A stretch of DNA of 64,000 nt from Bacteroidota bacterium (GCA_026416125.1 JAOAFT010000006.1:13015-77014), one strand, 5' to 3'. Numbered from the stretch's first letter, positions 7,391 through 56,042 are shown. A program made the numbers and translations. Notes: generated by a model from the letters alone, not told the origin.

Positions 7391-7493
7391 ATCAATTTCA
7401 AAGTAAAGAAATTAGACAGTGTTGTCAAGAAATGGATAGTTCTCCGATTTCTTTGGCTATCGTCAATCGTTTGTACACATTCGTTGTATCCGG

Positions 7494-8255
7494 TCAAATG
7501 GTATGTTCGTTACCTAAAAAAAATAGTGTTTCGAGTTTGTGAGTACAGGGATATACTAAAAATTCGCTTTTGTAGGAGCGTACCTTTTGGAAAAGGAAGA
7601 AAATACCCCACGCCATTGTTGGAAGTAGTGTTGATAATGGTTTTGCGAGTACAGGTGGCAATGGGTAGAAATTACTCCCAGCAAACTTGTGAAGTATGTA
7701 CCCTTGCGGAAAACAGGCACTTAAAAATTTCATCAAATCGCTTTTTGTGTACCCACGAAGGTGAGCGGAATAATTTTGGATACACGTTGGTTGTTTCCCA
7801 AAAGCTAGAAGTACCCGATTGTGAAATGAGGCGAGATTTGGAACACCAATAATGATAAATCCGCCCACGCGAAGTACACGTGTTGCCTCATGGAATACCC
7901 AGAATATTTCTTTGATATGTTCAAAAATTTGGTTTGCTATGATGACATCTACTGATTCAGTTGACAATGGAATTTTCTCCCGCTCAATATTGAGAGTATG
8001 GACAATTATACCATTAGCCTGCAATTCTTTTATGTATTCCGGTTCGATTTCTATTGCATGGAGCTCGCACGATGTGTTATACTCGCGAGCACGAATAAGG
8101 TCGATTCCCCACCCGGCACCGATATCAAGTACAACGTTCCCATTGGTTGTACAAAGGGCTTCCGAAAGGAAACGACGTACAATGTGTCGGCCATAATTTA
8201 GAGAACGGTCTATAACAGGAGTGAGTAGATCTTTATTGTTCATACGTGATCCCAC
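7494..8255 (-). CDS. Class I SAM-dependent methyltransferase.
   Basis: Methyltransferase motif I VLDIGAGWGIDLI and a post-I acidic residue. About 250 aa. Confidence 0.7.
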   Translation of the reverse strand: MGSRMNNKDLLTPVIDRSLNYGRHIVRRFLSEALCTTNGNVVLDIGAGWGIDLIRAREYNTSCELHAIEIEPEYIKELQANGIIVHTLNIEREKIPLSTESVDVIIANQIFEHIKEIFWVFHEATRVLRVGGFIIIGVPNLASFHNRVLLAFGKQPTCIQNYSAHLRGYTKSDLMKFLSACFPQGYILHKFAGSNFYPLPPVLAKPLSTLLPTMAWGIFFLFQKVRSYKSEFLVYPCTHKLETLFFLGNEHTI

Positions 8256-17430: not shown

Positions 17431-18261
17431 CTACTCTGTATAACGATCAAGTTTGAATTTTTCACCCAAGTACAATTTACGAGCTTCAGGATCATTTGCA
17501 AGGAACTCAGCTGTACCTGACTTCAGAATCTTCCCCTCAAAAAGCAAGTAGGAGCGATCTGTAATCGAAAGAGTTTCATGGACATTGTGATCGGTGATGA
17601 GAACACCGATATTCTTTTCTTTCAGAGCGCCCACAATCCTCATAATATCTTCGACTGCGATAGGATCAATCCCTGCAAACGGTTCATCTAGCAATATAAA
17701 TTTCGGATCGAGTGCTAAGGCACGTGCTATCTCCGTCCGACGACGTTCACCGCCAGACAATACATACCCTGGACTATTCACAACGTGGGTCAATCCAAAT
17801 TCCTCAAGTAAACGCATACACTTTTCTTCTTGTTCATGTTTACTCAGTTTCGTTGTTTGAAGAACAGCAAGGATGTTCTCCTTCACTGTGAGCCGACGAA
17901 AAATCGATGCTTCCTGTGGAAGGTACCCTATGCCTAAGCGTGCTCGCTTGTACATCGGCAGTTTTGTTATTTCTACATTATTGAAATAGACTTGCCCTCC
18001 ATCAGGGCGAATCATTCCAACAATCATGTAAAATGTTGTTGTTTTCCCTGCTCCATTGGGTCCAAGGAGCCCTACAATTTCTCCCTGTTGCACACGAATA
18101 TTCACGTCGTTAACAACTGTGCGTTTCTTATACCGTTTGATGAGGTGGGTCGCACGCAATTCAACACACCGATCTAGGTGTTGTTCCTGGTGGGGTGCTC
18201 CACACTCACTTTCGTATGTCATTGTATTCCCCATTGTTCTCGTGTGTAATTCGTAAGCCAC
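17431..18261 (-). CDS. lptB: LPS export ABC transporter ATP-binding protein LptB. The true start is probably an internal Met near 18222.
   Basis: Walker [13 protein letters not shown] signature LSGGERRR, Walker B ILLDEP. Operon position after lptC-lptA. Confidence 0.88.
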
Positions 18262-19525
18262 TGCGTTTTGGTCGATCTATTCTCCAATGAAATCCATCAA
18301 GATTGTATTCTGACTCTTTGCCAGCGAGCATTCGTTCTGGAATATACTGACCTTCAACACCACGATGCACCCGAAGCGTTGCAACTTCGCCTTCTTCAAA
18401 TACAATTTCAATGTGCTCACCGCTTATTTTATTTGCTCCATTTGGTACGCTGTTATCAAATACATAGTAGAAGCTCATTGCGTTCCGTTGCACATCAATA
18501 TGCTGTAATGTATTATCACGAAAGTACATAGTCAAATACTTCCCTGAGAGCTGATTAAATCGCGTCGGAGTAAGCGAATCTGAAAGTGAAATTGCCATTG
18601 CATGGCCATGAACTGTTACACGACGAAGTTCATTCTGCTCAATTTTTACAAAAATGCTATCCCCTGTTACCTGATTGTTTCCACTCCACACAATTGGTGC
18701 ATTAGTGAGAAGAATACTATCTGCCATACGAAGATACATTGCATAATTACACTTCGTTGCCAAATCGGAACGTGCCATTTGTACATTCCCAAGTGCAAGG
18801 AGCTTTTCTTCTGGCGCTTGAAAAAATTTCATCGTCGTACTCTCTACGACAGTTGTATCGATAACACCTTGATTTGTGGTATCAATTTTCACTAATCGAG
18901 GGTTCTTCGGAATAATACTCAACGATTCCTTTTCACGATATTCAAGAGAATCTCCATAGATATGGTACTTACTCACTTTGTTGTAAATGTGGACTGAATC
19001 ACGAGCTACAGAACGCGCCTCGCGTTCGAAGTACCACAGTTCATAACAGGTAATGACTGTCGATGAATCTTCTACTCTCACGTCTGTGTGAAAATACGAC
19101 CATTTTTCATCAACGTAGTAAATTCCGTGGCGTGCGGTTAGTACTTTAACACCTTGTTGGAGTCGAACACCAGTATGTACTTCCATCACACGTGTGTTTG
19201 CATTGTAAAATCCTTCATTCGACGTAAGAATTGCCTCACCTTCTTGAACCTTAACATTTCCATAGAGCTCTAGCCTATTTTGGACCATGTATCGAATTGC
19301 CCGATCACACCACACGTACACTCGTCCACCGTTCTTAGTCGGTTGTGTGAAATGAACATTCCCAATGAGTTCTCGTACCTCTTCATCTCCAACCATTTTC
19401 CCTTCGAGGCGCTGTGCAGATCGCAGCTCGATAACTGTTGCTTGCTGAGTATAACTCCAGACAGTGGGAATTGTAAGTAAAAAACTTACGGTGAGAACAT
19501 TATTGAGCAAGGACGTACTCGCCAT
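18206..19525 (-). CDS. lptA: OstA-like (LptA-family) periplasmic protein. It is unusually long (439 aa) for LptA.
   Basis: Signal peptide. Beta-jellyroll-like OstA N-terminal-type sequence. Sits between lptC and lptB. Confidence 0.6.
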
Positions 19526-19529
19526 ACAA

Positions 19530-20075
19530 TCACTTCATCGTTGCTTGACCTGTAACACGAAAGATTTTGTAGTACCTCAAACTTTGGTCTGCTTCGAACC
19601 CATGCCCTTGCAATCGCTCTTTTGAGGTTGTTATGGTTACAAAGTTCGGTGTGTAAATGAGCTGCCGTTTATTGTCCCAAAAGAGACGCTCTGTACGGAG
19701 CCGTGATGAATCACTTGATACAACAAGAACATTCCCTCGAGCCTCCATATCGTTTGTATTTTCATCAATGACAGCTTCTTCACTTATCAAGTACGATGTT
19801 TGTTTCCCCGTAAAACCATAAAACCGTACTAACACACCACCATTCAATTCGGTTTGGGATGTTTCTTCGAAGTAGCGGAGGTACCCTGCTTGAATGATTG
19901 CTTTTACACGCCCAGAATCGACAACGGTAATTGTACTATTCCAACTTTCCTGTTGGGGAAGTTCTTCACCGGAAATATCTGTCAGAACTGAAGGTTTTAC
20001 TTTATCTTCACATCCAAAAAAGAGAGAGAGAAGTACACACACCAGTAGGACCACTAATAACTTAAGGCGAATCAT
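19530..20075 (-). CDS. lptC: LPS export system protein LptC.
   Basis: Single N-terminal TM anchor (LLVVLLVCVLLSLFF). About 180 aa. Position between kdsD and lptA. Confidence 0.7.
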   Translation of the reverse strand: MIRLKLLVVLLVCVLLSLFFGCEDKVKPSVLTDISGEELPQQESWNSTITVVDSGRVKAIIQAGYLRYFEETSQTELNGGVLVRFYGFTGKQTSYLISEEAVIDENTNDMEARGNVLVVSSDSSRLRTERLFWDNKRQLIYTPNFVTITTSKERLQGHGFEADQSLRYYKIFRVTGQATMK

Positions 20076-42829: not shown

Positions 42830-45800
42830 ATGTCACACGCAATTGCGGTATTGATAGCAGTACTGTTCATCGCTCTACCAATCTATGCACAGGGAGTGAT
42901 GTACCCTTATCGGCAGAACTTTGATTCCGTCAGCACACCATTTTTCCCAAGTGGATGGGATGCTGTAGGATTCACACTCTCAACATCTTCACCGCGTTCT
43001 TCTCCGAACTGTGTGTACACAGCTGGTAACACAGCTAAGAAGACACTTACCACACCACCCTTTGACTTTGTGAAAAGAAATCCAGAAAAACTTACATTCT
43101 GGGAACGACGCTCAGCAACAGCTCTCACTTATCGACTTGAAGTCCGAGCTGCTATTGAGGATACAAATTTTTCCATACTTCTCGCCCGTTTTGACACTAG
43201 TCCATCAACTACAAGTTACATACTCAGGAGTGTTGATCTTTCTTCCAGTGTACTTGCTAACCGTTCAAACGTTCGATTTCGGTGGGTACTCCTCCAGGAT
43301 AACACCAATTCTACTGGTACACTCCGTATTGATGATGTAAGTATCACCGTACTGCCGACATACGATGTTGGAGTATCAGCGTTTACAATTTCAACTATCA
43401 ATCCAACCCGACGTGACTCATTAATATTCACAGCGACTATTTCAAATTACGCAACAAACTGTGGACGCGTACCTGTTTACTTTGGGCGAGATCTTAACGA
43501 AAACGGTAAAGCCGACCCCAACGAATTTATTACAACTGTTTCTATCGACACTCTTTTTGGAGGCGATTCATCAATTCTACAGTTTATCCATCCTCCATTA
43601 AAGCCAGCAGCCTATTCATTTTTCACTCTCACAGCAGCACTATCCGATGAGAATCGTTCAAATGACACTAGCATGTTATGGTGTACTATTGGATTTTGCA
43701 GAGGTGATGTTATCATTAATGAATTCCTCTATGCGCCAACTGGTGATGAGGACGAATGGATAGAACTCTATAACACGACATCCGATTCTGTGAATCTTCG
43801 GTTGTGGAAAGTTGCTGATAATAGTACTGCAGGGAAAACAACAATTACTACAAGCGATGTCATTTTCCCTCCTCGTTCGTACGCAGTACTATACAAGGAT
43901 CATATGTTCACCACACTTCACCCCGGTGTATTTGGGGTTCGAGTGCCTTTTGCTGCGCTCAACAACACCACGTCTGACGCAATTGTGCTCTATGACTCAC
44001 GGAACGTTGTTATCGATAGTCTTCGGTACGAACCATCATGGGGAGGAAAGAATGGGAAATCACTTGAGCGTATTGAGCCTGAACAACCGAGTACATCGAG
44101 AAGTAATTGGCAAACAAGTGATTCTACCATTGGCACACCAGGATTTGAAAACAGTGTTGCACGGAAAATGATTGATCTTGCAATTACAGCAATCAATGCG
44201 CGTTTTTTATATTCTACACCTCCTCAGTGGTTTATTGAACTTGTCGTTAAAAACATTGGAATTTCGACAGTCAAGGGTTGTACCACTCTTTTTTATCTTG
44301 ATACAAACAATAACGCTATCGCTGAGTGGAACGAGGAATGTGTACATTTATTCAACCAAGAACAAATAGTCAAAGGTGATTCTCTCTGCATACGTACAAC
44401 ACTGAATACCTCAGTATGGGGTGAACAAACACTTTTAGTACACCTAGTCGTACCAAACGACGAACGACTAAAAAACAATTTTACTTCACTACTCCTCAAC
44501 AGTGGCTATCCTCCCTCCTCAGTTGTCATCAACGAACTCCAATATGCCCCACCTGAAGGTCAGTGTGAATGGCTAGAACTCTTCAATCGTTCTCACATTC
44601 CAATTAATCTCAAAGGATGGACCTTTGCAGACCGTCCATCACCATCGGGGAATAGAACCATCGTAAAGATTACCGATTCAAATATTGTACTTCTTCCTCA
44701 ATCCTATTGCGTTATTGCAGCTGATTCAATTATCAAGGAAGCATTCCCATCTCTTTCTTCTAAAGTGCTCCTACTAATTCTACAGCGTTCTTCAGGTTTT
44801 AGTTTTAACAACGATAGCGATGCAGTTGTCTTGTACGATGGCATTGGTAATTGCATCGATAGTATCGTCTATATATCGACATGGTCACGAGTAAAAAACA
44901 GATCTCTCGAACGGTACGATACTGAAATACCTGCTCTCGATGTCTTGCAATGGTCGAGTACAGAATCCACAAGCGGCGGTACACCTGGTTTACCAAATAC
45001 GACTGCACGAAAAACATACGATATTGCTCTTGCACGAGCAACGCCTGAGTATTCACATTCGATGAAACACTGGACCATCGTGACAACAGTAAAAAATCTT
45101 GGGCGAATTACTGTACCATCGTACACTCTCACATTTTCACTCGATGGTAACAGGAACTATCTTCCAGAGCCTCATGAAGAACTTTTAGCGCTCAACATTT
45201 CTGAAATACTTGAACCTCTCGATTCTATGACCATTACAACATTGCTCCCCCAACTTCCTGCGGGCGATCAAAGGATACTTGTTGTTCTTACAGAAGACCA
45301 TGACGAACAACAGCGTAACAATACCATCTCTCTTTCTATTACATGTGGATATCCACCTCAATCAATTGTTATCACAGAACTATGTTTTGATCCACCCCCG
45401 GATCAATGTGAGTGGTTCGAACTCTTGAATCGCACAAGCGAGCCGATTAATCTTTTTAAGTGGTCGTTCGCAGATCGACCAACTGCCTCTGGATATCGGA
45501 ATAAATTTACAATTGGAGATTCAATATTTATTCTTCCACCATACAGTTATTGTGTTATCGCCGCAGACTCTACCATCTTTGAGGTTTTCCCTTCTCTTCA
45601 ACACTCTCAAGTACTCATTTTCAACAGAACAACAGGGTTTGGCTTAAATAACGATACTGATGCACTTACTCTTTACGATAACGCAGGAAATTCTATCGAT
45701 AGTGTTACATACTCAGCAAACTGGTTTCGTGTAAAACAGAAAGCCATCGAACGCATCGATGTAGAACAACCGGCACACGATTCAACAAATTGGAGTACTT

Positions 45801-47032
45801 CAGAATCTCCTCAAAGTGGTACACCAGGAGCACCAAACACTGTTGAACGGAAGAACTTCGACATCTGTATCACATACCCCTCTGCCATTGTACAACAAGA
45901 ACATACTATCTTGAGTCTAACAGTGCGAAACGTTGGTCGAGCACCATCATATAGTTTTACAGTTGTCTGTTTTCGCGATAGTAACACCAATACAAGACCA
46001 GATCCATCTGAAGTACTCCTCACAAGAAACTACACTGAGCTCCTTGCACCAAATGATTCGTTGCGTATTGAACTTTTGCTTTCGTACACATTCTATGGTA
46101 CATCAACACTTATGATCATTGTTTTTGATTCGCTTGACCAACGACCAAACAACAATACTGCCACAGTTAGCCTTACTCGATCGTACCCACACCGTTCACT
46201 CGTTATCAACGAAATTCTTTTCAATCCGTTGAATGGACAGAATGAGTGGTTTGAAGTATATAATCGATCACAACTCCCCATTGATCTCAAACGGTGGTAT
46301 ATTGCAGATGCACCTACACCGAGTGGAATACGATCGGTAGTACGAATTTCAGATTCGTCGTATATCCTTTACCCTGGCGAGTACTGTTGTATTGCATCAG
46401 ATTCGAGTATCTTTTCTTTTACCTTTAAAGCGTCCTCACGTGTTCATATTATTACACGCCCGAGTGGTTTTAACTTAGGAAATGATGGTGATGCTTTAGT
46501 ATTGTTCGATCACACAGGAACCCAAATTGATAGCGTATTCTTCTCAGCACAGTGGCACAATCCACGTGTAGCAGATACAAAAGGACGCTCACTTGAGCGA
46601 TTGAATCCAGAATTCGATTCCAACGACCCTCGTTCATGGGGCACGTGCACTCTTCCGGTGGGTGGTACCCCTGCTCACCAAAACAGCATTGCACTCCCAC
46701 TTCCACAGATTGGGGACGTGGTTACTATCGCCCCCAACCCTTTCTCGCCTGATGGAGATGGATATGAAGACCACTGTGCCATTCGCTACTCTCTCCCGTT
46801 CACAGCAACTTTCGTTACCATACGCATTTTCGATGTACGAGGGAGACTTGTGAAAACGCTAGCTGACCGCGAATATCGATCAGGAAATGATGTTATTATT
46901 TGGAATGGGTATGATGATTACAATCGAAGGGTTCGTGTTGGAATTTATATTGTCTTTTTTGAAGCTCGCGAACCACAAACACAGACTATTTTTCGGAATA
47001 AATATATTCTTATCACTGGAACTAAACTTTAA
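42830..47032 (+). CDS. 1400-aa secreted modular protein: four alternating CARDB-like and Lamin-tail-domain (LTD) modules plus a C-terminal T9SS type-B sorting domain.
   Basis: Signal peptide. LTD signatures occur four times (VIINEFLYAP..DEWIELYN; VVINELQYAP..CEWLELFN; IVITELCFDP..CEWFELLN; LVINEILFNP..NEWFEVYN). C-terminus has NPFSPDGDGYED...IRIFDVRGRLV (CHU_C/type-B-like). Confidence 0.8.
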   Translation: MSHAIAVLIAVLFIALPIYAQGVMYPYRQNFDSVSTPFFPSGWDAVGFTLSTSSPRSSPNCVYTAGNTAKKTLTTPPFDFVKRNPEKLTFWERRSATALTYRLEVRAAIEDTNFSILLARFDTSPSTTSYILRSVDLSSSVLANRSNVRFRWVLLQDNTNSTGTLRIDDVSITVLPTYDVGVSAFTISTINPTRRDSLIFTATISNYATNCGRVPVYFGRDLNENGKADPNEFITTVSIDTLFGGDSSILQFIHPPLKPAAYSFFTLTAALSDENRSNDTSMLWCTIGFCRGDVIINEFLYAPTGDEDEWIELYNTTSDSVNLRLWKVADNSTAGKTTITTSDVIFPPRSYAVLYKDHMFTTLHPGVFGVRVPFAALNNTTSDAIVLYDSRNVVIDSLRYEPSWGGKNGKSLERIEPEQPSTSRSNWQTSDSTIGTPGFENSVARKMIDLAITAINARFLYSTPPQWFIELVVKNIGISTVKGCTTLFYLDTNNNAIAEWNEECVHLFNQEQIVKGDSLCIRTTLNTSVWGEQTLLVHLVVPNDERLKNNFTSLLLNSGYPPSSVVINELQYAPPEGQCEWLELFNRSHIPINLKGWTFADRPSPSGNRTIVKITDSNIVLLPQSYCVIAADSIIKEAFPSLSSKVLLLILQRSSGFSFNNDSDAVVLYDGIGNCIDSIVYISTWSRVKNRSLERYDTEIPALDVLQWSSTESTSGGTPGLPNTTARKTYDIALARATPEYSHSMKHWTIVTTVKNLGRITVPSYTLTFSLDGNRNYLPEPHEELLALNISEILEPLDSMTITTLLPQLPAGDQRILVVLTEDHDEQQRNNTISLSITCGYPPQSIVITELCFDPPPDQCEWFELLNRTSEPINLFKWSFADRPTASGYRNKFTIGDSIFILPPYSYCVIAADSTIFEVFPSLQHSQVLIFNRTTGFGLNNDTDALTLYDNAGNSIDSVTYSANWFRVKQKAIERIDVEQPAHDSTNWSTSESPQSGTPGAPNTVERKNFDICITYPSAIVQQEHTILSLTVRNVGRAPSYSFTVVCFRDSNTNTRPDPSEVLLTRNYTELLAPNDSLRIELLLSYTFYGTSTLMIIVFDSLDQRPNNNTATVSLTRSYPHRSLVINEILFNPLNGQNEWFEVYNRSQLPIDLKRWYIADAPTPSGIRSVVRISDSSYILYPGEYCCIASDSSIFSFTFKASSRVHIITRPSGFNLGNDGDALVLFDHTGTQIDSVFFSAQWHNPRVADTKGRSLERLNPEFDSNDPRSWGTCTLPVGGTPAHQNSIALPLPQIGDVVTIAPNPFSPDGDGYEDHCAIRYSLPFTATFVTIRIFDVRGRLVKTLADREYRSGNDVIIWNGYDDYNRRVRVGIYIVFFEAREPQTQTIFRNKYILITGTKL

Positions 47033-47182
47033 CTGGTTAGTTATGACTACTCTTAATTCTTTATCACTTATCCTTATCAAAAAACACTAAAACTTTATAA
47101 CCTCGAAATTGCAAGTAATAAAAACTTTTTTAATACATTTGTTATTAACTCATTTAACTTTAAATCTAAAGTATACCACTTT

Positions 47183-48106
47183 ATGATGACACATTTCTAT
47201 ATTATAGTCCATTTCTTTACTTTCGGTGCTGGAGTAATGCTTGTTTCTTTCTCTCTCATTGCTTTTAAAAAAACACAAAAGATATTTTACCTAAATCTTT
47301 TCTACTTTACGATAGTAATAATTATTTTTTCATTCTTAGGCTTTTTATACACGTACAAAACAGGGCTACAGCTTCAGTTCCCTACATTGTATTTTCGCGT
47401 CTATGATATTCTATGGTCTCTTTTCTGGTTTCTCTATTACCGTATTTCCCCTCGTTTTTTCTACCATATACTCGAAAAAACTATACCACGAATTGTTGAG
47501 ATCTGCTTTAATGCCATAAGTTTTGTTGCAATTCCATACTTACTGGTTTACACTTTTAACATTCTAACACTAAAAAACGCTATCGATATCATTGTAGAAA
47601 TCTTACTGTATTTGAGTGCTCTCTTCCACTGTGTTTTAGTCTTTCACTATAAAAACAACGTTAAAAAACCAGAAATGAGGCATTATGTCCAATATGTCTC
47701 TATTTACTTTTTTATATTTATTCCCCTCGCGTGCCTTAATGTTTTCTTAAACTTTACCCTGCTTCCTATTATTGAAAACAACTTAAAAAATTATTTAATC
47801 TCGTTTTCAGTTCTTGCTTGGTTTATATTAAACATTATTTTTCTGTTCCGACAATTTTCTTTAGAAAGTACTCATATAGCTTTTGAAATTCCAAAAGAAG
47901 TACAAGCCAAATATGGTTTAACAGACCGCGAAATTCAAATAATCAAACTACTCGTTGACAGGTATAGTTATAAAGAAATAGCTTACCAACTCTTCATCTC
48001 AGTACCCACCGTTAAGTATCATGCCTCTAATATCTATTTTAAGCTCAATATTAAAACAAGAGCAGAACTTATCGAACTCCTAAAAAAATACAGTTACACT
48101 TCGTAA
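47183..48106 (+). CDS. Polytopic membrane protein with a C-terminal LuxR/GerE-type HTH (membrane-bound one-component regulator).
   Basis: About 6-7 predicted TM helices over ~230 aa, followed by LTDREIQIIKLLVDRYSYKEIAYQLFISVPTVKYHASNIYFKL. Very AT-rich. Confidence 0.75.
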   Translation: MMTHFYIIVHFFTFGAGVMLVSFSLIAFKKTQKIFYLNLFYFTIVIIIFSFLGFLYTYKTGLQLQFPTLYFRVYDILWSLFWFLYYRISPRFFYHILEKTIPRIVEICFNAISFVAIPYLLVYTFNILTLKNAIDIIVEILLYLSALFHCVLVFHYKNNVKKPEMRHYVQYVSIYFFIFIPLACLNVFLNFTLLPIIENNLKNYLISFSVLAWFILNIIFLFRQFSLESTHIAFEIPKEVQAKYGLTDREIQIIKLLVDRYSYKEIAYQLFISVPTVKYHASNIYFKLNIKTRAELIELLKKYSYTS

Positions 48107-48254
48107 TAGTCTTGAGATGTAAATTTTTATAAAAACTATACAAAAAGTATAGGTCATTTTACTAGACATCTTACTACATTGCAGACAACCATTGTCAGAG
48201 GAGATTAACACTACACAAATAATAAAATCCTTAAAAACGGGAAAGGGCAAAATT

Positions 48255-49835
48255 ATGAAAAGACAAATAATGATAAAAATCATAACCATGTTAATGGTTA
48301 TGATCACGAACAGATGCTTCGCACAAATACCCCAATTGTTGAATTATCAAGGTGTTCTTTGTGACAGCTCAGGATTACCTATAAGCGATGGGACATATAC
48401 GCTAATATTTAAACTTTATGATCATGCAACTAAAAGTGGTGAGCTTTGGTCTGAACAACAAATAGTTACCGTTCGCAAAGGTGTTTTTTCAGTTAATCTT
48501 GGAACTCAATCTCAATTAAATTTGCCTTTTAATAAGCAATATTGGCTTGGTATTACAATAGGTAATGGTAACGAATTAACGCCTCGAATACAATTAACAT
48601 CTTCAGCTTATAGTATGAATTCGATTTCGGTAGCAGATAGTTCAATAACTAGTATTAAGATCAAAGAAGGTGCTATAACATCATCGAAAATAGCAACAAA
48701 TGCAATTACGCAAACAAAACTTGCAGATAGTACCGTTACCACAGAAAAATTAGCAAATTTAAGCGTAACATCATCCAAACTGGCAAACAATTCTGTAACA
48801 ACCGAAAAAATTGCAGATGGAGCCATTACCCAATCTAAGCTTGCTCAAGGTATCTCTATCCCTGTAAGCGGCAATGCTGGTGGCGATCTCACTGGCACAT
48901 ATCCAAATCCAATTATTGGAAACGCTAAAGTAACCAAAGAAAAATTGGCTGATTCGGCCGTAACTACTGCAAAACTCGCCGTCAATTCTGTAACAACCGA
49001 AAAAATTGCAGATGGAGCCATTACCCAATCTAAGCTTGCTCAAGGTATCTCTATCCCTGTAAGCGGCAATGCTGGTGGCGATCTCACTGGCACATATCCT
49101 GACCCTACAATCAAAGACAAAGCAATAGCAAGCAAACACATAAATTGGCCAATCCAATTATCTGATGAGCTCGTATTAGGAAACCCTGGTACTTACTCAC
49201 TCCAAGCAAGTCGATACTCTGGTACTTTACAACTTTGCCCCAATAACACTTCGTATGCTCCTCTTTTTGTGGTCAAAGGCAATTATAGTTACTCTGCTTG
49301 GCTTGGTGGAAATGTACTAATCTCAAACGGAAACTTAACTGTAAATGGGAATCTACTTGTATTTGGTTCAAAGAGTTTTATCATCGACCACCCACTCGAT
49401 CCCGCGAATAAATACCTTGTTCACTTTTGCATTGAATCCAACAAGCCATTGAACGTTTACACTGGTACAGTCGTTACAGATAGAGATGGAAATGCCACTA
49501 TTGACCTACCAGCTTATTTTGAAGCTATAAATCGTGACTTCCATTACCAACTAACTGTCCTTGGTCAATTTGCACAAGCTATTGTAAGTGAAGAGATTCA
49601 CAATAACCGTTTTTCAATAAAAACCGACAAGCCAAATGTTAAAGTGAGTTGGCAAGTAACAAGTGTTCGTAACGATCTTTCCATGCAGGGATCACTTCCT
49701 CAAACTGAAGTTTATAAAAGTGTAAAAGAACGTGGGAAGTACTTCAATCCAAAACTCTATGGTGCACCTCCATCATCAGGTTTATACAACAACGAGTTGC
49801 CACAACATTTAAACGATAGTCATGAATCGAACTAA
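48255..49835 (+). CDS. Secreted tail-fiber-like protein. Domains in order: conserved N-terminal domain, ~10-residue xITxxKLAxx repeats, C-terminal tail-fiber-type domain. The ORF-track start is 48192; the likely start is MKRQIM with a signal peptide.
   Basis: Signal peptide MKRQIMIKIITMLMVMITNRCFAQ. Decapeptide repeats (AITSSKIATN / AITQTKLADS / VTTEKLANLS ...). Perfect 39-aa internal duplication. C-terminal KSFIIDHPLDP...YQLTVLGQFAQAIV resembles Bacteroidetes tail-fibre-domain proteins (from memory). Confidence 0.55.
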   Translation: MKRQIMIKIITMLMVMITNRCFAQIPQLLNYQGVLCDSSGLPISDGTYTLIFKLYDHATKSGELWSEQQIVTVRKGVFSVNLGTQSQLNLPFNKQYWLGITIGNGNELTPRIQLTSSAYSMNSISVADSSITSIKIKEGAITSSKIATNAITQTKLADSTVTTEKLANLSVTSSKLANNSVTTEKIADGAITQSKLAQGISIPVSGNAGGDLTGTYPNPIIGNAKVTKEKLADSAVTTAKLAVNSVTTEKIADGAITQSKLAQGISIPVSGNAGGDLTGTYPDPTIKDKAIASKHINWPIQLSDELVLGNPGTYSLQASRYSGTLQLCPNNTSYAPLFVVKGNYSYSAWLGGNVLISNGNLTVNGNLLVFGSKSFIIDHPLDPANKYLVHFCIESNKPLNVYTGTVVTDRDGNATIDLPAYFEAINRDFHYQLTVLGQFAQAIVSEEIHNNRFSIKTDKPNVKVSWQVTSVRNDLSMQGSLPQTEVYKSVKERGKYFNPKLYGAPPSSGLYNNELPQHLNDSHESN

Positions 49836-49862
49836 CCCGTACATTGCCAAAGGAGATTACTA

Positions 49863-50396
49863 ATGTGGAAAAATTTATGGAAAAAAGTACAGTACCCTCT
49901 TCTTATCTTCATCGTTTTATCTCCAGAATGGGGATACTCACAATTTATTAAATCATCCACTTTTGGAAGTGGAAGCAATACCTGCTTTTCGAGCACCCAT
50001 AGTGTAAGTGGAATTGTAGGACAAAATATCGTAGGACGTGTTTCAAACACTGTGTATTCTCTCCTCTCTGGCTACTGGTCTCACCGTCATTATTCTACAA
50101 CAGCTCTTGAATACACAACAACTAATTATCCACAACAACTGCAATTATTCAATAATTATCCCAATCCATTTAATGCTTCTACCACTATTTCATTTGTAAT
50201 CCCAAAACCATCCTATGTAACATTGAAAATTTACAATTTATTAGGACAAGAAGTCGCAACTTTAATTGAAAAAGAATTATTACCAGGAATATATTCTCAC
50301 ACTTGGAACACAGTTACAGCATCAAGTGGAATGTATGTTTGCGTGCTAAAAGTAGATCAATGTATTGAAACAAAGAAATTATTACTTGTCAAGTAA
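49863..50396 (+). CDS. Small T9SS type-A C-terminal sorting domain protein (mini-cargo, ~90-aa passenger).
   Basis: Signal peptide. C-terminal NYPNPFNASTTISFVIPKPSYVTLKIYNLLGQEVATLIEKELLPGIYSHTWN...SGMYVCVLKV (Por_Secre_tail-like). Confidence 0.75.
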   Translation: MWKNLWKKVQYPLLIFIVLSPEWGYSQFIKSSTFGSGSNTCFSSTHSVSGIVGQNIVGRVSNTVYSLLSGYWSHRHYSTTALEYTTTNYPQQLQLFNNYPNPFNASTTISFVIPKPSYVTLKIYNLLGQEVATLIEKELLPGIYSHTWNTVTASSGMYVCVLKVDQCIETKKLLLVK

Positions 50397-50855
50397 AAAT
50401 TCTTCATGTATGATGGGTGATTGGTGGAGTTATACAAAACACTTGAACTGTTGAGAAATTAAGTATTTAATTCTCATTATAATACGATGTGTGATTCCAC
50501 CAATCTTATGTATATTACCGTATAGAATTCAACCTGTAGAACATATAATTTTCTGATATTTAGACAATAGTAAGAGTACTCCCCCGTTTTCCCATAATTC
50601 ATGATGATCGCGTTTTCTACTTATACTCCACCTATTTTCCTTCTAATGAAATCTTTTACGATAATGCCATGTGTCATTCTCTACATTTTTATCCATAAAT
50701 ACTCTCTTTATTCTTCCAAATTTTGTAATATTGACTAATACCCCATACAATAAGTACAAACTCTATCAGACTCATAAAGTGCAAACGATGTGATTCAAGT
50801 TCGTTCTCAAAATTATTGAATAATACAGGGAAATTCTCTACATTATGATAGTGAA

Positions 50856-50927
<72 letters not shown>

Positions 50928-50955
50928 TCTACTTTCAAAGGAAATTCTCTATACC

Positions 50956-51882
50956 TCAATAGAGTACCAACCACTTACCGTGAGCTGGTTTCCCTAGTAC
51001 TTTTCGAATCCCTGGTGCCGGAAAATGGTAAAGATCGAGAACTCGTACAAGTGCTTTCCAGGTATCATGGTCTACAGGGAGCGTAGCGAGATTGTAATCG
51101 AGTGCTATAACAAATTTACGGGAGGGTACTCCAGGAGGGTAAATTGGTGTTCCACTAACCCAGTGTGGTCGACTTGAAATATTCTCTCCACCGTATCCAA
51201 TTGCAATGTTGAGGAATGGTACCCAGTACGACTTTACTTTCTCTGGTAACAGATTGTAAACATCAATCGTAAGCCAGTACAGATGTCCATCGTAGTCATC
51301 CGTAATCCGAAAGTGCCGATCAAAGGGTATAATACCAGAAGGGTAGTAACTCCATTTAAATTTAAAATTATTAAAGAACGGTACACATCGCTGAAGATAC
51401 GCATATCCTATACCAAGAATATTTGCATTCAGATCAGTCATTGAAAACGCATACGTCGAGAAACCATCTCCAATTTCAATGGAGAGCGCATAGAAAAAGG
51501 ATATACCACTGCTCCACCACTGAGCAGTCAATTCAGAGTAACCACCCCAGCGGAATAATTCATAGAGAATAGTAGTGTATGCATACGAAGTATAGAAATG
51601 TCCTATTTTATCGACACCAAGAGAATAGTTGTGCCAGAACCCATCGTTTTCAAATCGAAACGGGTGATAATTTCCTTCCCACCACCACTTGTATTCGAGA
51701 TATGTTGTAAAGAGAGTGTGAACAGCAATACCAGCTGTAATAAATGGCTTCCTCTGGAGGTACCATGGAGACCCATCCATTGCTCTCGTAGAATCCAATT
51801 TCTGAGCATGGATATAAGACACTGCGACCTGTGTGAGAGAGATAAGGATTATATATTTTCTAAAAGTCAAAGTAAACCCCAA
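50956..51882 (-). CDS. Hypothetical secreted (outer-membrane?) protein. TTG start per the ORF track.
   Basis: N-terminal signal-like segment. Trp/Tyr-rich. No motif recognised. Confidence 0.45.
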   Translation of the reverse strand: MGFTLTFRKYIILISLTQVAVSYIHAQKLDSTRAMDGSPWYLQRKPFITAGIAVHTLFTTYLEYKWWWEGNYHPFRFENDGFWHNYSLGVDKIGHFYTSYAYTTILYELFRWGGYSELTAQWWSSGISFFYALSIEIGDGFSTYAFSMTDLNANILGIGYAYLQRCVPFFNNFKFKWSYYPSGIIPFDRHFRITDDYDGHLYWLTIDVYNLLPEKVKSYWVPFLNIAIGYGGENISSRPHWVSGTPIYPPGVPSRKFVIALDYNLATLPVDHDTWKALVRVLDLYHFPAPGIRKVLGKPAHGKWLVLY

Positions 51883-52717
51883 GTGACTGAATGGTTACTT
51901 TTGTATTGTACAACTGCCCTCGTTCGTCATATCCAGTGCGATGCGTTAATGCAATTCGGCATATATACGGTGAGGCACTAGATATGCGTACACCAGCTTG
52001 ATAGCTCTGTGTTGAACCAAAGTTTACTTCATCGCGGAATTTTATATCGAAGGCCATGTACCCCATAAGCGCCGGTGTAATGTGTGTGTGAACAACATCC
52101 GCTCCTACTTCAAATAACCACAATGGCGTTTTTCCTGATGGAACCTTAAATGTATGATGATAAAAGAATCCACCATAGATATATCCTTTGAAAATATCCA
52201 TACGTTTAAGAACAAACACTCTGTAGTAATCGCGTACATAATTTATTGAGTGTTGGAACCCAAGTATCTCTAACGCATCGTCATTGAGATGGTGACTTGT
52301 ATGACCTGCACCTATTTGAAAAAATGTGGACGAATCCCATGTAATGGTAACGTATAGATCAACATAGAAATCTGTATTGATAACTCTGAAACTCCCTGGT
52401 TTATGGTCGAGTTGTGTGAATACCGTACCAGCACCAACCACATCGGCAAGAAGATTGTCTTTTCTATAGTATACTAGTGGAATACTACGACCAAAACCAA
52501 CCCAGAAGTGATCTTTGTTCAGGAACTTACTCACTGAAAATCCATGATCTGTACAGTTCGCAGTGAACTGTGGCATTAATCGTTGGAACGGGAAAAACGT
52601 ATACACGGATTTCTTTTCTTGTGTAAATGCAATTGAAAACAACAGTACTTGAAGAAGGTGTATTAACAATCGCTTTCGTGTTGTACTGGAGTTCCTCTTT
52701 TCCTTTCGCATTACCAC
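51860..52717 (-). CDS. Hypothetical outer-membrane beta-barrel-like protein.
   Basis: N-terminal hydrophobic segment. Alternating aromatic/hydrophobic pattern. C-terminal ...GVYFDF with a terminal Phe, typical of OM barrels. Confidence 0.45.
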   Translation of the reverse strand: MVMRKEKRNSSTTRKRLLIHLLQVLLFSIAFTQEKKSVYTFFPFQRLMPQFTANCTDHGFSVSKFLNKDHFWVGFGRSIPLVYYRKDNLLADVVGAGTVFTQLDHKPGSFRVINTDFYVDLYVTITWDSSTFFQIGAGHTSHHLNDDALEILGFQHSINYVRDYYRVFVLKRMDIFKGYIYGGFFYHHTFKVPSGKTPLWLFEVGADVVHTHITPALMGYMAFDIKFRDEVNFGSTQSYQAGVRISSASPYICRIALTHRTGYDERGQLYNTKVTIQSLGVYFDF

Positions 52718-54389: not shown

Positions 54390-56042
54390 ATGAAACGTTT
54401 TTTACTAACTTTCTGCAGTCTAACGCTTATTCCTTGCACTCTCTGGACACAGGAAAAAGAGCTCCCCATCAAAAACAACGATGTTTCAATAGCTATTACC
54501 ACCCAGATCGAAACTATCGTAAACCAGATACTACGACAGAATGTTCATTCCACAGACACTATTGATACTACCGATACAATCGAAATTTTTTCAGAGGACG
54601 AGAATCTCGAAACAAAGGGGAACATTATTAACGGCGATCTAACAATTACAGAAAACTCAGTGTACAACTCGAGTGTAGTTGTAAAAAATGGTACACTCCG
54701 TGTAGCGGGCACACTTCGAGGGAACGCCGTTGTACTTAATGGTGACCTTATTGTAAATTCTACTGGAGTAATTGAGGGAAATGCAGAGGTTATCAACGGT
54801 AGAATCATTAAGGACACGGGAGCATCAATCCTTGGGTACGAAGATATTAGTACAACTCACACACGATCACCAAAATTATTTCGTAAGCGCTTGTTCCATT
54901 CAAGTACTGCCTTCGATGTCCCATGGCGGTATGATCTTACAGATATAGACCAATTCATTTTCCGCTACAATCGTGTTGAAAGTGTTTTCTTAGGACTCGG
55001 TTCAGAGAAAAAATACTACTGGGATGGACGTCGCTCATGGAACGCTTATGGATTCATTGGGTGGGGGTTCAAATCACACAAGTGGAGAACATTACTTGGT
55101 CTAAGCCGACAGTTTCGTTTTAGCAACGAACATACTGATCGGATTTTTGATATCGGATTCGAAGGGTACAGTCTTACAGATACAAAGGATCGGTGGTACA
55201 TCTCAACCGTGGAGAATACACTTGCAGCCCTCCTTATGCACGAAGACTTTCGTGATTACTTCCAACGAGAAGGTTATACACTTTACCTCGGTCACTCCAC
55301 ACAATCGGAAACATTGAAGACAGAACTCACTTTTGCATTCAAGGCCGATGCATACGAATCAATGGCAAAACGTGTTGATTGGGCATTCTTCGGTGGAAAG
55401 AAGCGTTTCCGCGAAAATCCCCCCATACGAGAAGGAAAATTACGGAGTTTCGTTTTAAGCGGTGGACTCTCAACGGTGACAAAAACAAATGTTGGCTTGC
55501 ATGGGTGGAATGTATACGCATCACTTGAATTTTCACGCCGCTCGATTGGTAGCAATGTCGGATTCGATCAGTACATTGTTGACATCAGTCGCTTTCAACC
55601 ACTCGATAGCTACAATAATTTAAATGTACACCTTCGTGTAGGTACTGCTGACGGCACTCTACCACCACAACGATCCTTTGAACTCGGTGGTATTGGTACC
55701 TTGAATGCATTTCCAACAAAAGCCTTTGCAGGGAACAGAATGTTTCTGCTAAACACAGAGTTCATTCTCAACGGTAGCATATTCGATGATCTCGATCTAT
55801 TACCTTTTGAAATGTTTAATTATATCATCCTCATTCTAATGTCAGATGCTGGGTGGGTTACGTCAGTGCCAGGGTGGTACTCACCTGTTAAAGGGTTCAG
55901 CTCACTCTCGTTCAAAACCTTACACCATAATCTTGGTATTGCCGTCGGTAATCGTTCTGGATCATATCGAATTGGATTTGTCTGGCGTACCGACCAACGT
56001 AAACAAGTACAATTACTCCTCCGTCTCCAACGACCATTCTAA
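54390..56042 (+). CDS. Hypothetical OM protein: signal peptide + bactofilin-like beta-helix segment + C-terminal Omp85/surface-antigen-like barrel.
   Basis: GNIINGDLTITENSVYNSSVVVKNGTLRVAGTLRGNAVVLNGDLIVNSTGVIEGNAEVINGRII (bactofilin-type repeat). C-terminal FELGGIGTLNAFPTKAFAGNRMFLLNTEF resembles the Omp85 LGG..(LR)GF...G motif. Ends in Phe. Confidence 0.5.
   Translation: MKRFLLTFCSLTLIPCTLWTQEKELPIKNNDVSIAITTQIETIVNQILRQNVHSTDTIDTTDTIEIFSEDENLETKGNIINGDLTITENSVYNSSVVVKNGTLRVAGTLRGNAVVLNGDLIVNSTGVIEGNAEVINGRIIKDTGASILGYEDISTTHTRSPKLFRKRLFHSSTAFDVPWRYDLTDIDQFIFRYNRVESVFLGLGSEKKYYWDGRRSWNAYGFIGWGFKSHKWRTLLGLSRQFRFSNEHTDRIFDIGFEGYSLTDTKDRWYISTVENTLAALLMHEDFRDYFQREGYTLYLGHSTQSETLKTELTFAFKADAYESMAKRVDWAFFGGKKRFRENPPIREGKLRSFVLSGGLSTVTKTNVGLHGWNVYASLEFSRRSIGSNVGFDQYIVDISRFQPLDSYNNLNVHLRVGTADGTLPPQRSFELGGIGTLNAFPTKAFAGNRMFLLNTEFILNGSIFDDLDLLPFEMFNYIILILMSDAGWVTSVPGWYSPVKGFSSLSFKTLHHNLGIAVGNRSGSYRIGFVWRTDQRKQVQLLLRLQRPF

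What the first reader, a model, noticed from the sequence alone, without database searches (positions are those of the whole stretch)
42830..47032. 1400-aa T9SS type-B cargo built from four CARDB + Lamin-tail-domain modules
The LTD hallmark (INEhhYxP....EWhEL[YF]N) recurs four times at ~280-aa spacing, and each copy is preceded by a CARDB-like Ig module. The C-terminus carries NPFSPDGDGYED, the type-B T9SS sorting motif. Bacterial LTDs are poorly characterised but are frequently linked to membrane or nucleic-acid association in extracellular enzymes. A four-fold CARDB-LTD array on a T9SS substrate suggests a large surface adhesin or matrix-binding protein.
Basis: partly seen in the sequence, partly recalled or inferred. 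Interest (0 to 1): 0.5.

Follow-up and report, generated by a model that had tools for sequence, protein, structure and literature searches.

The report
Modular lamin-tail surface protein, T9SS-exported
This intact 1400-residue gene encodes a non-enzymatic, probably secreted or surface-displayed protein built from a binding-type head, four repeated pairs of immunoglobulin-like domains and a C-terminal export tag; it belongs to a large, already auto-annotated but unstudied family, so it is a sound but fairly ordinary finding.

Summary
ORF 42830..47032 (+) is intact at 1400 aa. It has four strong Lamin Tail Domains (Pfam LTD, 232 bits), each preceded by an Ig module.

The Ig modules are homologous to one another and are CARDB at family level. 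Only module 4 scores as CARDB in the query itself, and only in the whole-protein scan.

The C-terminal 100 aa form a T9SS-type beta-sandwich, but "type B" is not established:
- Pfam CHU_C is borderline: 26.0 bits in context, 30.8 isolated, cut-off 27.
- NCBIfam TIGR04131 fails: 15-18.6 bits against a cut-off of 35.
- FlgD_ig scores nearly as well as CHU_C.
- No PorP/SprF gene was identified beside the gene in the 59 head-family loci examined.

Relatives in Ignavibacteriota, Kryptonia and related MAGs have the form head-(CARDB-LTD)n-CTD with n = 1-5. The middle modules expanded independently in different lineages. A head-less subfamily carries 6-9 LTDs.

LTDs are acidic family-wide (median pI 4.6), which argues against simple DNA binding.

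Best reading: a T9SS-exported adhesin with a Ca2+-stabilised stalk and a distal head.

The identical protein is already in NCBI (MCX7984105.1, "lamin tail domain-containing protein"). It is a new member of a known kind, of modest interest.

The parts
42830..42889 (+). Sec signal peptide (aa 1-20, MSHAIAVLIAVLFIALPIYA), predicted cleavage A20|Q21
   Evidence: Read directly from the translation. Homologues begin their mature part with AQ(I/V)..FPY. An N-terminal Gln after cleavage fits the Bacteroidetes Q-rule, and Ignavibacterium album has a Q-value of 77% (PMC5837995). No signal-peptide predictor was run.
42890..43363 (+). N-terminal head domain (aa 21-178): beta-jelly-roll of the cleaved-adhesin / MAM / reelin subrepeat-B class
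43364..43699 (+). CARDB-like Ig module 1 (aa 179-290), with EF-hand-like loop DLNENGKADPNE at aa 221
   Evidence: Internal alignment, iterated family Ig HMM, loop motif. No direct Pfam CARDB hit.
43700..44152 (+). Lamin Tail Domain 1 (aa 291-441)
   Evidence: Best Pfam LTD stretch, aa 292-400. Hallmark at aa 294. Family HMM.
44153..44512 (+). CARDB-like Ig module 2 (aa 442-561), loop DTNNNAIAEWNE at aa 491
   Evidence: No direct Pfam hit.
44513..44998 (+). Lamin Tail Domain 2 (aa 562-723)
   Evidence: One of the 4 Pfam LTD stretches. Hallmark at aa 565..
44999..45355 (+). CARDB-like Ig module 3 (aa 724-842), loop DGNRNYLPEPHE at aa 772
   Evidence: Pfam CARDB 16.5 bits, E 0.01, below the cut-off..
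45356..45838 (+). Lamin Tail Domain 3 (aa 843-1003)
45839..46189 (+). CARDB Ig module 4 (aa 1004-1120), loop DSNTNTRPDPSE at aa 1050
   Evidence: Pfam CARDB stretch at aa 1015-1087; the whole protein scores 33.3 bits against a cut-off of 22.7. In the AF2 model it is a beta-sandwich with pLDDT about 90.
46190..46684 (+). Lamin Tail Domain 4 (aa 1121-1285)
   Evidence: AF2 model: beta-rich, pLDDT 70-92.
46685..46723 (+). Short linker (aa 1286-1298)
   Evidence: Lies between the LTD4 end motif GGTPAHQNS and the CTD start. pLDDT dips to 66-74 here.
46724..47029 (+). C-terminal sorting-type beta-sandwich (aa 1299-1400) of the FlgD-Ig / CHU_C / Por_Secre_tail superfamily; a subtype seen only in this family in the data examined
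   Evidence: CHU_C 30.8, FlgD_ig 24.1 and Por_Secre_tail 13.5 bits when isolated. Across 28 family CTDs: CHU_C 28/28, FlgD_ig 27/28, TIGR04131 24/28, TIGR04183 17/28; each count is of members matching at E <= 0.01, which is weaker than passing a curated cut-off. PDB profile hits: FlgD 3osv E 4e-6, PorU 6za2 E 0.015. The PNPFSP motif lies 98-99 aa from the end in the 39 of 40 homologues listed, and within the last 120 aa in 119 of 120. The family CTD HMM gives 141 bits here, against at most 28 bits for the other CTD-bearing genes in the relatives' loci and 15 bits for the one other hit in the window.

Best explanation
The gene encodes a non-enzymatic cell-surface or matrix protein, exported in two steps.

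Export. A Sec signal peptide is cleaved at A20|Q21, which delivers the protein to the periplasm. [quoted passage not shown] It either stays attached through that end or is released.

Mature protein. It is a rod of nine beta-sandwich domains. Four CARDB-LTD pairs form a stalk. The stalk is acidic and is probably stiffened by Ca2+ bound in one EF-hand-like loop per CARDB module. The stalk holds a 160-aa jelly-roll head of the gingipain cleaved-adhesin/MAM class at the end farthest from the anchor. The head is the primary ligand-binding element; the ligand is unknown, and a glycan or another extracellular polymer is likeliest. The number of stalk pairs sets the reach.

Shown here: domain identities, the order head-(CARDB-LTD)4-CTD, family distribution, independent module expansions, and absence of catalytic domains.

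Inferred: T9SS dependence, surface retention, Ca2+ binding, the stalk role of the LTD pairs, and ligand binding by the head.
For: - Intact ORF and domain calls.
- No enzymatic family in Pfam or NCBIfam at E <= 1.
- The head is a confident jelly-roll (pLDDT 88.5). Its closest solved structures are reelin, the Kgp K1 adhesin, MAM domains and CBMs, which are all binding modules.
- The head is the most conserved region across the family.
- Related head domains occur in other T9SS cargos alongside Cleaved_Adhesin, InhA-MAM, fn3 and type-A CTDs.
- Family architecture is H-(I-L)n-C with n = 2, 3, 4, 5 among the 120 homologues. Forms of about 575 aa, consistent with n = 1 by length, also appear.
- The first and last modules are positionally orthologous in all members. 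The middle modules derive from a module-4-like unit in this lineage and from a module-1-like unit in others. Length was therefore adjusted independently, as expected for a spacer.
- The CTD sits at a fixed distance from the C-terminus in essentially all members. It matches CHU_C, FlgD_ig and the PorU/PorZ CTDs.
- The AF2 model of module 4 plus CTD gives three beta-sandwiches, pLDDT 85.4.
- T9SS use in this organism is supported by a type-A CTD protein 3 kb downstream (Por_Secre_tail 32.8 bits, cut-off 27) and by type-A cargos next to relatives.
- The loop D-x-N-x-N-x6-E occurs once per Ig module, in 65% of 430 family modules against 3% of shuffles.
- Stalk domains are acidic, with median pI 4.6.
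Against: - No T9SS core gene was seen in the 64-kb window, and the rest of the genome could not be searched.
- The CTD passes no curated threshold cleanly.
- The head-less subfamily, such as I. album IALB_2995 with 6 LTDs, keeps the CARDB-LTD array and the CTD. The array must therefore have a function of its own beyond spacing.
- The head's basic charge in the query (pI 9.5) is not conserved: the family median is 6.0.
- The jelly-roll fold does not identify a ligand.
- Ca2+ binding is a motif-level inference only.
- There is no expression or localisation data.
Confidence: 0.5

Rival explanations
1. The CARDB-LTD array is itself the working part. Each LTD is a low-affinity binding site for an extracellular polymer such as eDNA (possibly cation-bridged), exopolysaccharide or plant/algal glycan. 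Repetition provides avidity, so copy number tunes binding strength rather than reach. The head is an accessory specificity module.
For: The head-less subfamily retains 6-9 LTDs plus the same CTD. LTD motifs are strongly conserved in all copies. In other prokaryotic proteins LTDs are fused to extracellular nucleases or ComEC-type proteins. Deleting the ExeM LTD lowers nuclease activity in vitro (PMC6085458; PMC8289736; PMC5118699).
Against: Family-wide, LTDs are acidic (median pI 4.64; only 4% have pI above 7.5; n = 520), which is unfavourable for direct DNA binding. In ExeM the LTD was dispensable for extracellular DNA degradation in vivo. No nuclease or glycosidase gene is conserved next to the family. 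The conserved LTD residues are the general LTD hallmark, which is likely structural.
Confidence: 0.25
2. It is a genuine type-B T9SS cargo. It would be collected from the translocon and anchored by a dedicated PorP/SprF-like outer-membrane shuttle encoded elsewhere in the genome (an 'orphan' type-B substrate), analogous to SprB and Fjoh_1123/1720/4934.
For: CHU_C is the top Pfam model for the isolated CTD (30.8 bits, cut-off 27) and matches 28 of 28 family CTDs over nearly the full profile. This CTD subtype is highly conserved (57% mean column identity). It is distinct from the type-A CTDs found in the same loci (at least 140 bits against at most 28), echoing the A/B dichotomy. Orphan type-B substrates served by an unlinked shuttle are documented (PMC12618676).
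Against: TIGR04131 scores 15-18.6 bits against a cut-off of 35 and aligns only profile positions 4-48 of 85. FlgD_ig and the PorU/PorZ type-A-like CTDs score similarly. No PorP/SprF gene was identified among the neighbours that were examined (recurrent neighbour clusters read by eye, a few scanned with Pfam), among the ORFs scanned from the window, or in the four Pfam-labelled loci. Type B has so far been described in Bacteroidota proper.
Confidence: 0.2
3. It is a structural coat or S-layer-like component, or a released matrix scaffold. It would self-associate through its Ig-like domains, giving homophilic cell-cell cohesion or sheath formation, with no specific external ligand.
For: It consists entirely of beta-sandwich domains with no enzyme. 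It is an acidic, possibly Ca2+-dependent array. Many genomes hold one copy at unrelated housekeeping loci, consistent with a constitutive structural role. CARDB domains were named for cell-adhesion-related proteins.
Against: Nothing indicates oligomerisation. The distal jelly-roll head of an adhesin/CBM class is better explained by ligand binding. Module number varies between lineages, which is unusual for lattice-forming proteins.
Confidence: 0.1

Closest known systems
Uncharacterised 'lamin tail domain-containing proteins' of Ignavibacteriota, Kryptonia and related MAGs (e.g. MCX7984105.1, which is this protein; IALB_2995 / WP_014561836.1 of Ignavibacterium album)
   Same: Same family. The protein is identical to MCX7984105.1. 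Family members share the CARDB-LTD repeats and the same conserved 100-aa CTD ending VVVA(R/T)KL.
   Different: IALB_2995 belongs to the head-less subfamily with 6 LTDs. The closest relative of the query is only 48% identical. None has been studied experimentally, as far as the paper searches show.
Porphyromonas gingivalis gingipain/HagA adhesin modules (Cleaved_Adhesin domains K1-K3 on T9SS cargo)
   Different: Gingipains carry a protease and a type-A CTD, and their adhesin domains are proteolytically processed. Here there is no protease and there is a single head. The query head does not reach any Pfam cut-off.
Flavobacterium johnsoniae SprB and other type-B CTD adhesins with PorP/SprF shuttles
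   Same: Large repetitive surface proteins with an approximately 100-aa CTD containing an F(T/S)PNGDG-like motif. CHU_C is the best Pfam match.
   Different: The TIGR04131 cut-off is not met. No PorP/SprF gene lies downstream here, and none was identified among the relatives' neighbours examined. The repeat types differ. No link to gliding motility is known (PMC12618676).
LTD-bearing extracellular nucleases (Shewanella ExeM, Vibrio Xds, Haloferax Hvo_1477)
   Same: They contain the same Pfam LTD in a secreted or envelope protein (PMC6085458, PMC5118699).
   Different: Those have a single LTD fused to nuclease domains. Here there are four LTDs alternating with CARDB, no nuclease, and acidic LTDs.
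Variable-length stalk adhesins ('periscope proteins', from my own knowledge: Whelan et al. 2021)
   Same: An anchor at one end, a functional head at the other, and a repeat stalk whose copy number differs between lineages.
   Different: Periscope proteins vary through near-identical DNA repeats. Here the repeats share 27-47% amino-acid identity with only residual DNA similarity. Length therefore changes on evolutionary timescales, not by phase variation.

Membership tests
Lamin Tail Domain (Pfam PF00932) | HMM score above the gathering cut-off (34.3 bits) | tested here: met
   232 bits, E 1.2e-69, 4 stretches.
Lamin Tail Domain (Pfam PF00932) | Ig-like beta-sandwich fold | tested here: inconclusive
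   The AF2 model of aa 1121-1285 is beta-rich with pLDDT 70-92. Foldseek on the three-domain model returned only generic tandem-Ig hits. The LTD could not be searched alone.
CARDB (Pfam PF07705) | HMM score above the cut-off (22.7 bits) for each of the four Ig modules | tested here: inconclusive
   The whole protein scores 33.3 bits through module 4 only. Isolated modules: module 4 scores 19.3, module 3 scores 16.5, modules 1 and 2 give no hit. The modules are homologous to each other. 25 of 33 family modules match CARDB at E <= 0.01. Weak PDB hits to CARDB-type structures 2l0d, 2kut, 3idu and 2kl6.
T9SS type-B CTD (NCBIfam TIGR04131 / Pfam CHU_C PF13585) | TIGR04131 score above the curated cut-off (35 bits) | tested here: not met
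   15 bits in context and 18.6 bits isolated; only profile positions 4-48 of 85 aligned.
T9SS type-B CTD (NCBIfam TIGR04131 / Pfam CHU_C PF13585) | CHU_C score above the gathering cut-off (27 bits) | tested here: inconclusive
   26.0 bits in the full protein and 30.8 bits for the isolated CTD. 28 of 28 family CTDs match at E <= 0.01, but FlgD_ig matches 27 of 28.
T9SS type-B CTD (NCBIfam TIGR04131 / Pfam CHU_C PF13585) | Cognate PorP/SprF-like gene, usually directly downstream (PMC12618676) | tested here: not met
   The downstream gene here is a LuxR-type membrane protein. No PorP_SprF hit in the 25 window ORFs that were scanned; about 24 ORFs in 1-33 kb were not scanned. None in the Pfam-labelled loci of P0002, P0003, P0090 and P0075. 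Neighbours of the 55 head-family loci were clustered; the recurrent clusters and the candidate-sized downstream genes were read by eye as housekeeping genes, with only a few scanned by Pfam. Orphan type-B substrates exist, so this is not decisive.
T9SS type-B CTD (NCBIfam TIGR04131 / Pfam CHU_C PF13585) | Five conserved motifs A-E; secretion independent of PorV and dependent on a PorP/SprF shuttle | not testable with these tools
   No reference type-B alignment was available. The secretion dependence requires genetics.
T9SS type-A CTD (TIGR04183 / Pfam PF18962) | HMM score above the cut-off | tested here: not met
   PF18962 scores 13.5 bits against a cut-off of 27. The query has no TIGR04183 hit. 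17 of 28 family CTDs match TIGR04183 at E <= 0.01, best E 2.9e-5.
T9SS cargo in general | N-terminal Sec signal peptide plus a C-terminal beta-sandwich at the extreme C-terminus | tested here: met
   Signal peptide by inspection. AF2 CTD strands at model residues 296-394, pLDDT 83-94. Matches to the PorU and PorZ CTDs and to FlgD-Ig. Fixed position in 119 of 120 homologues.
T9SS cargo in general | Organism encodes the T9SS core (SprA, PorV, GldKLMN/PorKLMN, PorU) | not tested
   Only 64 kb is available. Indirect support comes from a type-A CTD protein at 49863-50396. The literature lists Ignavibacteriota among phyla that may have T9SS (PMC11285876).
Cleaved_Adhesin / MAM / Reelin subrepeat-B jelly-roll (head domain) | Fold match to solved members | tested here: met
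Cleaved_Adhesin / MAM / Reelin subrepeat-B jelly-roll (head domain) | Pfam HMM score above the cut-off | tested here: not met
   The query scores 12 bits on Reelin_subrepeat-B against a cut-off of 27. Among family heads, 12 of 32 match Reelin-B and 2 of 32 match Cleaved_Adhesin.
Periscope-type variable-length adhesins | Near-identical tandem DNA repeats that allow rapid copy-number change | tested here: not met
   Units share 27-47% amino-acid identity. Only 22-61-nt residual DNA matches remain.

The most novel reading that the evidence does not exclude
The strongly conserved CTD (PNPFSPDGDGFEDF...VVVARKL) defines a third T9SS sorting class in Ignavibacteriota, Kryptonia and related lineages. 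In the data examined it occurs only in this family. It coexists with ordinary type-A CTDs in the same genomes and passes neither the type-A nor the NCBIfam type-B threshold. On this reading it would be served by its own dedicated shuttle or anchor that is not encoded next to the cargo. It would deliver a Ca2+-rigidified LTD rod, which would be the first prokaryotic LTD array with a defined surface role.
Probability: 0.12. Interest if true: 0.6.

Novelty: new member of a known kind. Interest (0 to 1): 0.3.

Why it matters
Bacterial Lamin Tail Domains are widespread, yet no function has been shown for any of them. This family is a clean, enzyme-free system for asking what an LTD does. It has hundreds of members at 50% clustering, and its LTD copy number ranges from 1 to 9.

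The family also shows that T9SS cargo outside the classical Bacteroidota can carry a CTD that current type-A and type-B models do not classify. This matters for secretome prediction in environmental FCB-group genomes.

The practical value is in annotation. The family should be described as head-(CARDB-LTD)n-CTD adhesin-like proteins, not simply as 'lamin tail domain-containing'. By itself the finding does not overturn anything.

Tried and rejected
1. The look-up of encoding contigs on two window ORFs, meant to obtain Pfam labels for 2-35 kb, failed because the products were not on record. I scanned the ORFs that have signal peptides instead.
2. A genome scan with the head alignment failed because no stretch was conserved enough. 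I used the module 4 + CTD alignment instead.
3. A PDB sequence search with the head profile found nothing meaningful (PD-1, E 0.6). The fold search was needed.
4. Foldseek with the three-domain model gave only generic tandem-Ig hits at TM about 0.2, so it cannot classify the LTD or the CTD.
5. A conserved partner gene was sought among the neighbours of the 55 head-containing loci; none spans the family. The sub-clade synteny that exists involves housekeeping genes: M20 peptidase/OPT, GlnD/MurI, and AhcY/MetK/response regulators.
6. The 367-aa secreted CxxCH protein downstream of I. album IALB_2995 was considered as a possible shuttle. It has no homologue in the window or in the other loci.
7. 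DNA binding by bulk charge was rejected because LTDs are acidic family-wide. The basic head of the query is not a conserved feature.
8. I suspected that the DUF5907 gene and the small CTD gene downstream were one gene split by an in-frame stop. This was rejected because the second has its own AAGGAG ribosome-binding site and its own signal peptide.
9. The sigma-70 promoter and terminator scans were at background level.

Full report
**The observation**

Window 42830..47032 (+) is one uninterrupted 1400-codon ORF ending in a single stop.

Pfam finds Lamin Tail Domain (PF00932) at 232 bits, E 1.2e-69, in four stretches. The hallmark V(I/V)I(N/T)E...EW(I/F/L)E(L/V).N starts at aa 294, 565, 846 and about 1124, with spacings of 271, 281 and 278 aa. 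NPFSPDGDGYED lies at aa 1303-1314.

At DNA level the repeat survives only as 22-61-nt patches of 64-78% identity, with a period of about 840 nt. The units are therefore ancient duplications, not an assembly artefact.

**The Ig modules**

The four units (aa 176-441, 442-723, 724-1003, 1004-1285) align end to end, including the half that precedes each LTD.

Pfam recognises CARDB only in module 4 in the whole-protein scan; the whole protein scores 33.3 bits against a cut-off of 22.7. Scanned in isolation, modules 4 and 3 fall below the cut-off (19.3 and 16.5 bits) and modules 1 and 2 give nothing.

An HMM built from the four modules and iterated once on the homologues finds a strict alternation I-L-I-L-I-L-I-L in the query. 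Of 33 sampled family Ig modules, 25 match CARDB at E <= 0.01, best 7.4e-10. The family profile also weakly hits solved CARDB-type domains 2l0d, 2kut, 3idu and 2kl6.

"CARDB-like" is therefore right by transitive homology, although it is weak in the query itself.

Each Ig module carries one 12-residue loop D-x-N-x-N-x6-E, at aa 221, 491, 772 and 1050. The loop is present in 65% of 430 family modules against 3% of shuffled controls. In the AF2 model it falls between two strands. It has the spacing of an EF-hand-type Ca2+ loop. That comparison rests on my own knowledge of the motif and was not tested.

Residues 21-178 are a separate domain. The signal peptide before them (aa 1-20) is predicted to be cleaved at A|Q, which fits the Bacteroidetes Q-rule; I. 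album has a Q-value of 77% (PMC5837995).

This head is the best-conserved part of the family, scoring up to 223 bits against two-module homologues.

Pfam agrees only weakly. Reelin_subrepeat-B matches 12 of 32 family heads and Cleaved_Adhesin 2 of 32; the query scores 12 bits.

A full-library profile search finds 2777 representatives at E <= 1e-3 and 119 at E <= 1e-30. These include very large proteins with 3-8 internal copies of the domain. Four of the five such proteins scanned carry Cleaved_Adhesin, InhA-like MAM or Reelin-B hits; fn3, CARDB or a type-A T9SS CTD each occur in one or two of them.

The head is thus a binding-type jelly-roll that is commonly deployed on T9SS cargo.

**The C-terminal domain**

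*Scores for the query*

| Model | Score in full protein | Score isolated | Cut-off |
|---|---|---|---|
| CHU_C (Pfam, type B) | 26.0 bits | 30.8 bits | 27 |
| FlgD_ig | 21.2 bits | 24.1 bits | 27 |
| Por_Secre_tail (Pfam, type A) | not listed | 13.5 bits | 27 |
| TIGR04131 (NCBIfam, type B) | 15 bits | 18.6 bits | 35 |

TIGR04131 aligns only profile positions 4-48 of 85. NCBIfam also gives weak matches to the C-termini of PorU and PorZ.

*Across 28 diverse family CTDs (matches at E <= 0.01)*

| Model | Members matching |
|---|---|
| CHU_C | 28 |
| FlgD_ig | 27 |
| PF18962 (type A) | 6 |
| TIGR04131 (type B) | 24 (best E 2.8e-5) |
| TIGR04183 (type A) | 17 (best E 2.9e-5) |
| PorU C-terminus | 28 |
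| FlgD | 28 |

The family profile hits solved FlgD (3osv, E 4e-6) and the PorU CTD (6za2, E 0.015).

The domain is therefore a member of the FlgD-Ig/CHU_C/Por_Secre_tail beta-sandwich superfamily. It leans towards CHU_C but does not satisfy the curated type-B definition.

*A distinct subtype*

The domain forms its own tight subtype:
- The PNPFSP motif lies 98-99 aa from the end in the 39 of 40 homologues listed, and within the last 120 aa in 119 of 120.
- The terminus is typically VVVA(R/T)KL.
- Mean column identity is 57%.
- An HMM of the subtype gives at least 140 bits to family members. It gives at most 28 bits to the other roughly 25 CTD-bearing genes found in the relatives' loci, and 15 bits to the type-A cargo in the window.

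*PorP/SprF partner*

The type-B literature defines the class by TIGR04131, five motifs and a cognate PorP/SprF shuttle, which is usually encoded directly downstream; orphans are known (PMC12618676).

Here the downstream gene is a LuxR-type membrane protein. None of the 25 window ORFs that were scanned, including those with signal peptides, is PorP/SprF-like. About 24 ORFs in 1-33 kb were not scanned. None appears in the Pfam-labelled loci of four relatives. Among the neighbours of the 55 head-family loci, the recurrent clusters and the candidate-sized downstream genes read as housekeeping genes by eye, and none resembled a PorP/SprF barrel.

"Type B" is therefore only partly supported.

**Family and evolution**

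The identical protein is already deposited as MCX7984105.1, [quoted passage not shown]. The next relative is 48% identical.

Relatives come from Ignavibacteriota, Kryptonia, "Bacteroidota" MAGs, Chlorobi-like MAGs and KSB1.

Domain parsing of 120 homologues gives two subfamilies:
- Head-(CARDB-LTD)n-CTD, with n = 2 (42 proteins), 3 (9), 4 (20, including the query) and 5 (3). Forms of about 575 aa, consistent with n = 1 by length, appear in other searches.
- A head-less form that starts with an LTD and carries 6-9 LTDs, for example I. album IALB_2995.

The first and last units are positionally orthologous throughout the family. The query's middle units 2 and 3 are 47% identical to each other and are closest to the unit-4 type. 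In other four-unit lineages the middle units are unit-1-like. Copy number therefore rose independently in several lineages.

No neighbouring gene is conserved across the family.

**Mechanism**

No catalytic family is detected.

The most economical reading has these steps:
1. Sec export, followed by T9SS translocation directed by the CTD.
2. The result is a nine-domain rod. Its acidic CARDB-LTD pairs (query pI 4.5-5.9; family median 4.6) form a stalk that is possibly Ca2+-stiffened.
3. The N-terminal jelly-roll head is the distal ligand-binding element.

Independent changes in unit number fit a reach-setting spacer.

The main caveat is the head-less subfamily. It implies that the array has a function of its own, so a multivalent LTD-array binder is the principal rival.

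Direct DNA binding by LTDs has been suggested by their fusion to nucleases elsewhere (PMC6085458, PMC8289736, PMC5118699). Their consistent acidity disfavours this. So does the finding that the ExeM LTD was dispensable for extracellular DNA degradation in vivo.

**Verdict**

The sequence reading was accurate.

The protein is a new member of an already auto-annotated, uncharacterised family of T9SS-type cargo. Interest is modest. It lies mainly in the unclassifiable, family-restricted CTD subtype and in the chance to study LTD function free of any enzyme.

Noticed in passing
window 43490-43525, 44300-44335, 45143-45178, 45977-46012 (aa 221, 491, 772, 1050): Each CARDB-like module has one EF-hand-like 12-residue loop D-x-N-x-N-x6-E. 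The loop is present in 65% of 430 family Ig modules against 3% of shuffles. It may be a Ca2+ site that stiffens the stalk.
   Followed up: partly
window 46000-52000: GC content drops to 0.366-0.38, against about 0.42 elsewhere. The dip spans the 3' end of the LTD gene and three downstream genes: a LuxR/GerE membrane protein, a DUF5907 repeat protein and a small type-A T9SS cargo. This may be an acquired islet.
   Followed up: no
window 48192-49835 (+): A 547-aa DUF5907-repeat protein contains a 170-nt direct repeat (48735 and 48930, 89% identity), giving two near-identical peptide blocks. Its function is unknown.
   Followed up: partly
window 49863-50396 (+): A 177-aa protein with its own AAGGAG ribosome-binding site, a signal peptide and a type-A T9SS CTD (Por_Secre_tail 32.8 bits). 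It lies in frame with the preceding gene but is a separate gene. This is the only direct hint in the window that the organism uses T9SS.
   Followed up: yes
window 47183-48106 (+): The gene immediately downstream encodes a multi-pass membrane protein with a C-terminal LuxR/GerE HTH (55 bits). It is not found next to relatives of the LTD gene.
   Followed up: partly
L001 9081-9905; L030, L054, L056, L067 about 7020-7890: A CPBP/Rce1-like intramembrane protease gene lies directly upstream of the LTD-family gene in the closest relative's locus (L001). In four Kryptonia-type loci whose upstream genes were read, it overlaps the LTD-family gene by 7-16 nt. It is absent from this window.
   Followed up: partly
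L083 14810-15913 (Ignavibacterium album, downstream of IALB_2995): A 367-aa secreted protein with a CxxCH motif near its N-terminus and a C-terminal ...FHFWY, which resembles an outer-membrane barrel. It has no Pfam family and no homologue in the window or in the other loci.
   Followed up: partly
window 54390-56042 (+): A 550-aa signal-peptide protein ending ...LQRPF, which resembles an outer-membrane barrel. It has only a sub-threshold DUF5686 hit (23.7 bits against a cut-off of 39.2).
   Followed up: no
window 17431-20075 (-): A cluster that looks like an LPS-transport operon. The 439-aa ORF matches OstA_2, LptD_N and LptC in Pfam. The flanking 276-aa and 181-aa ORFs resemble LptB and LptC by eye only. 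This is consistent with a diderm envelope.
   Followed up: no
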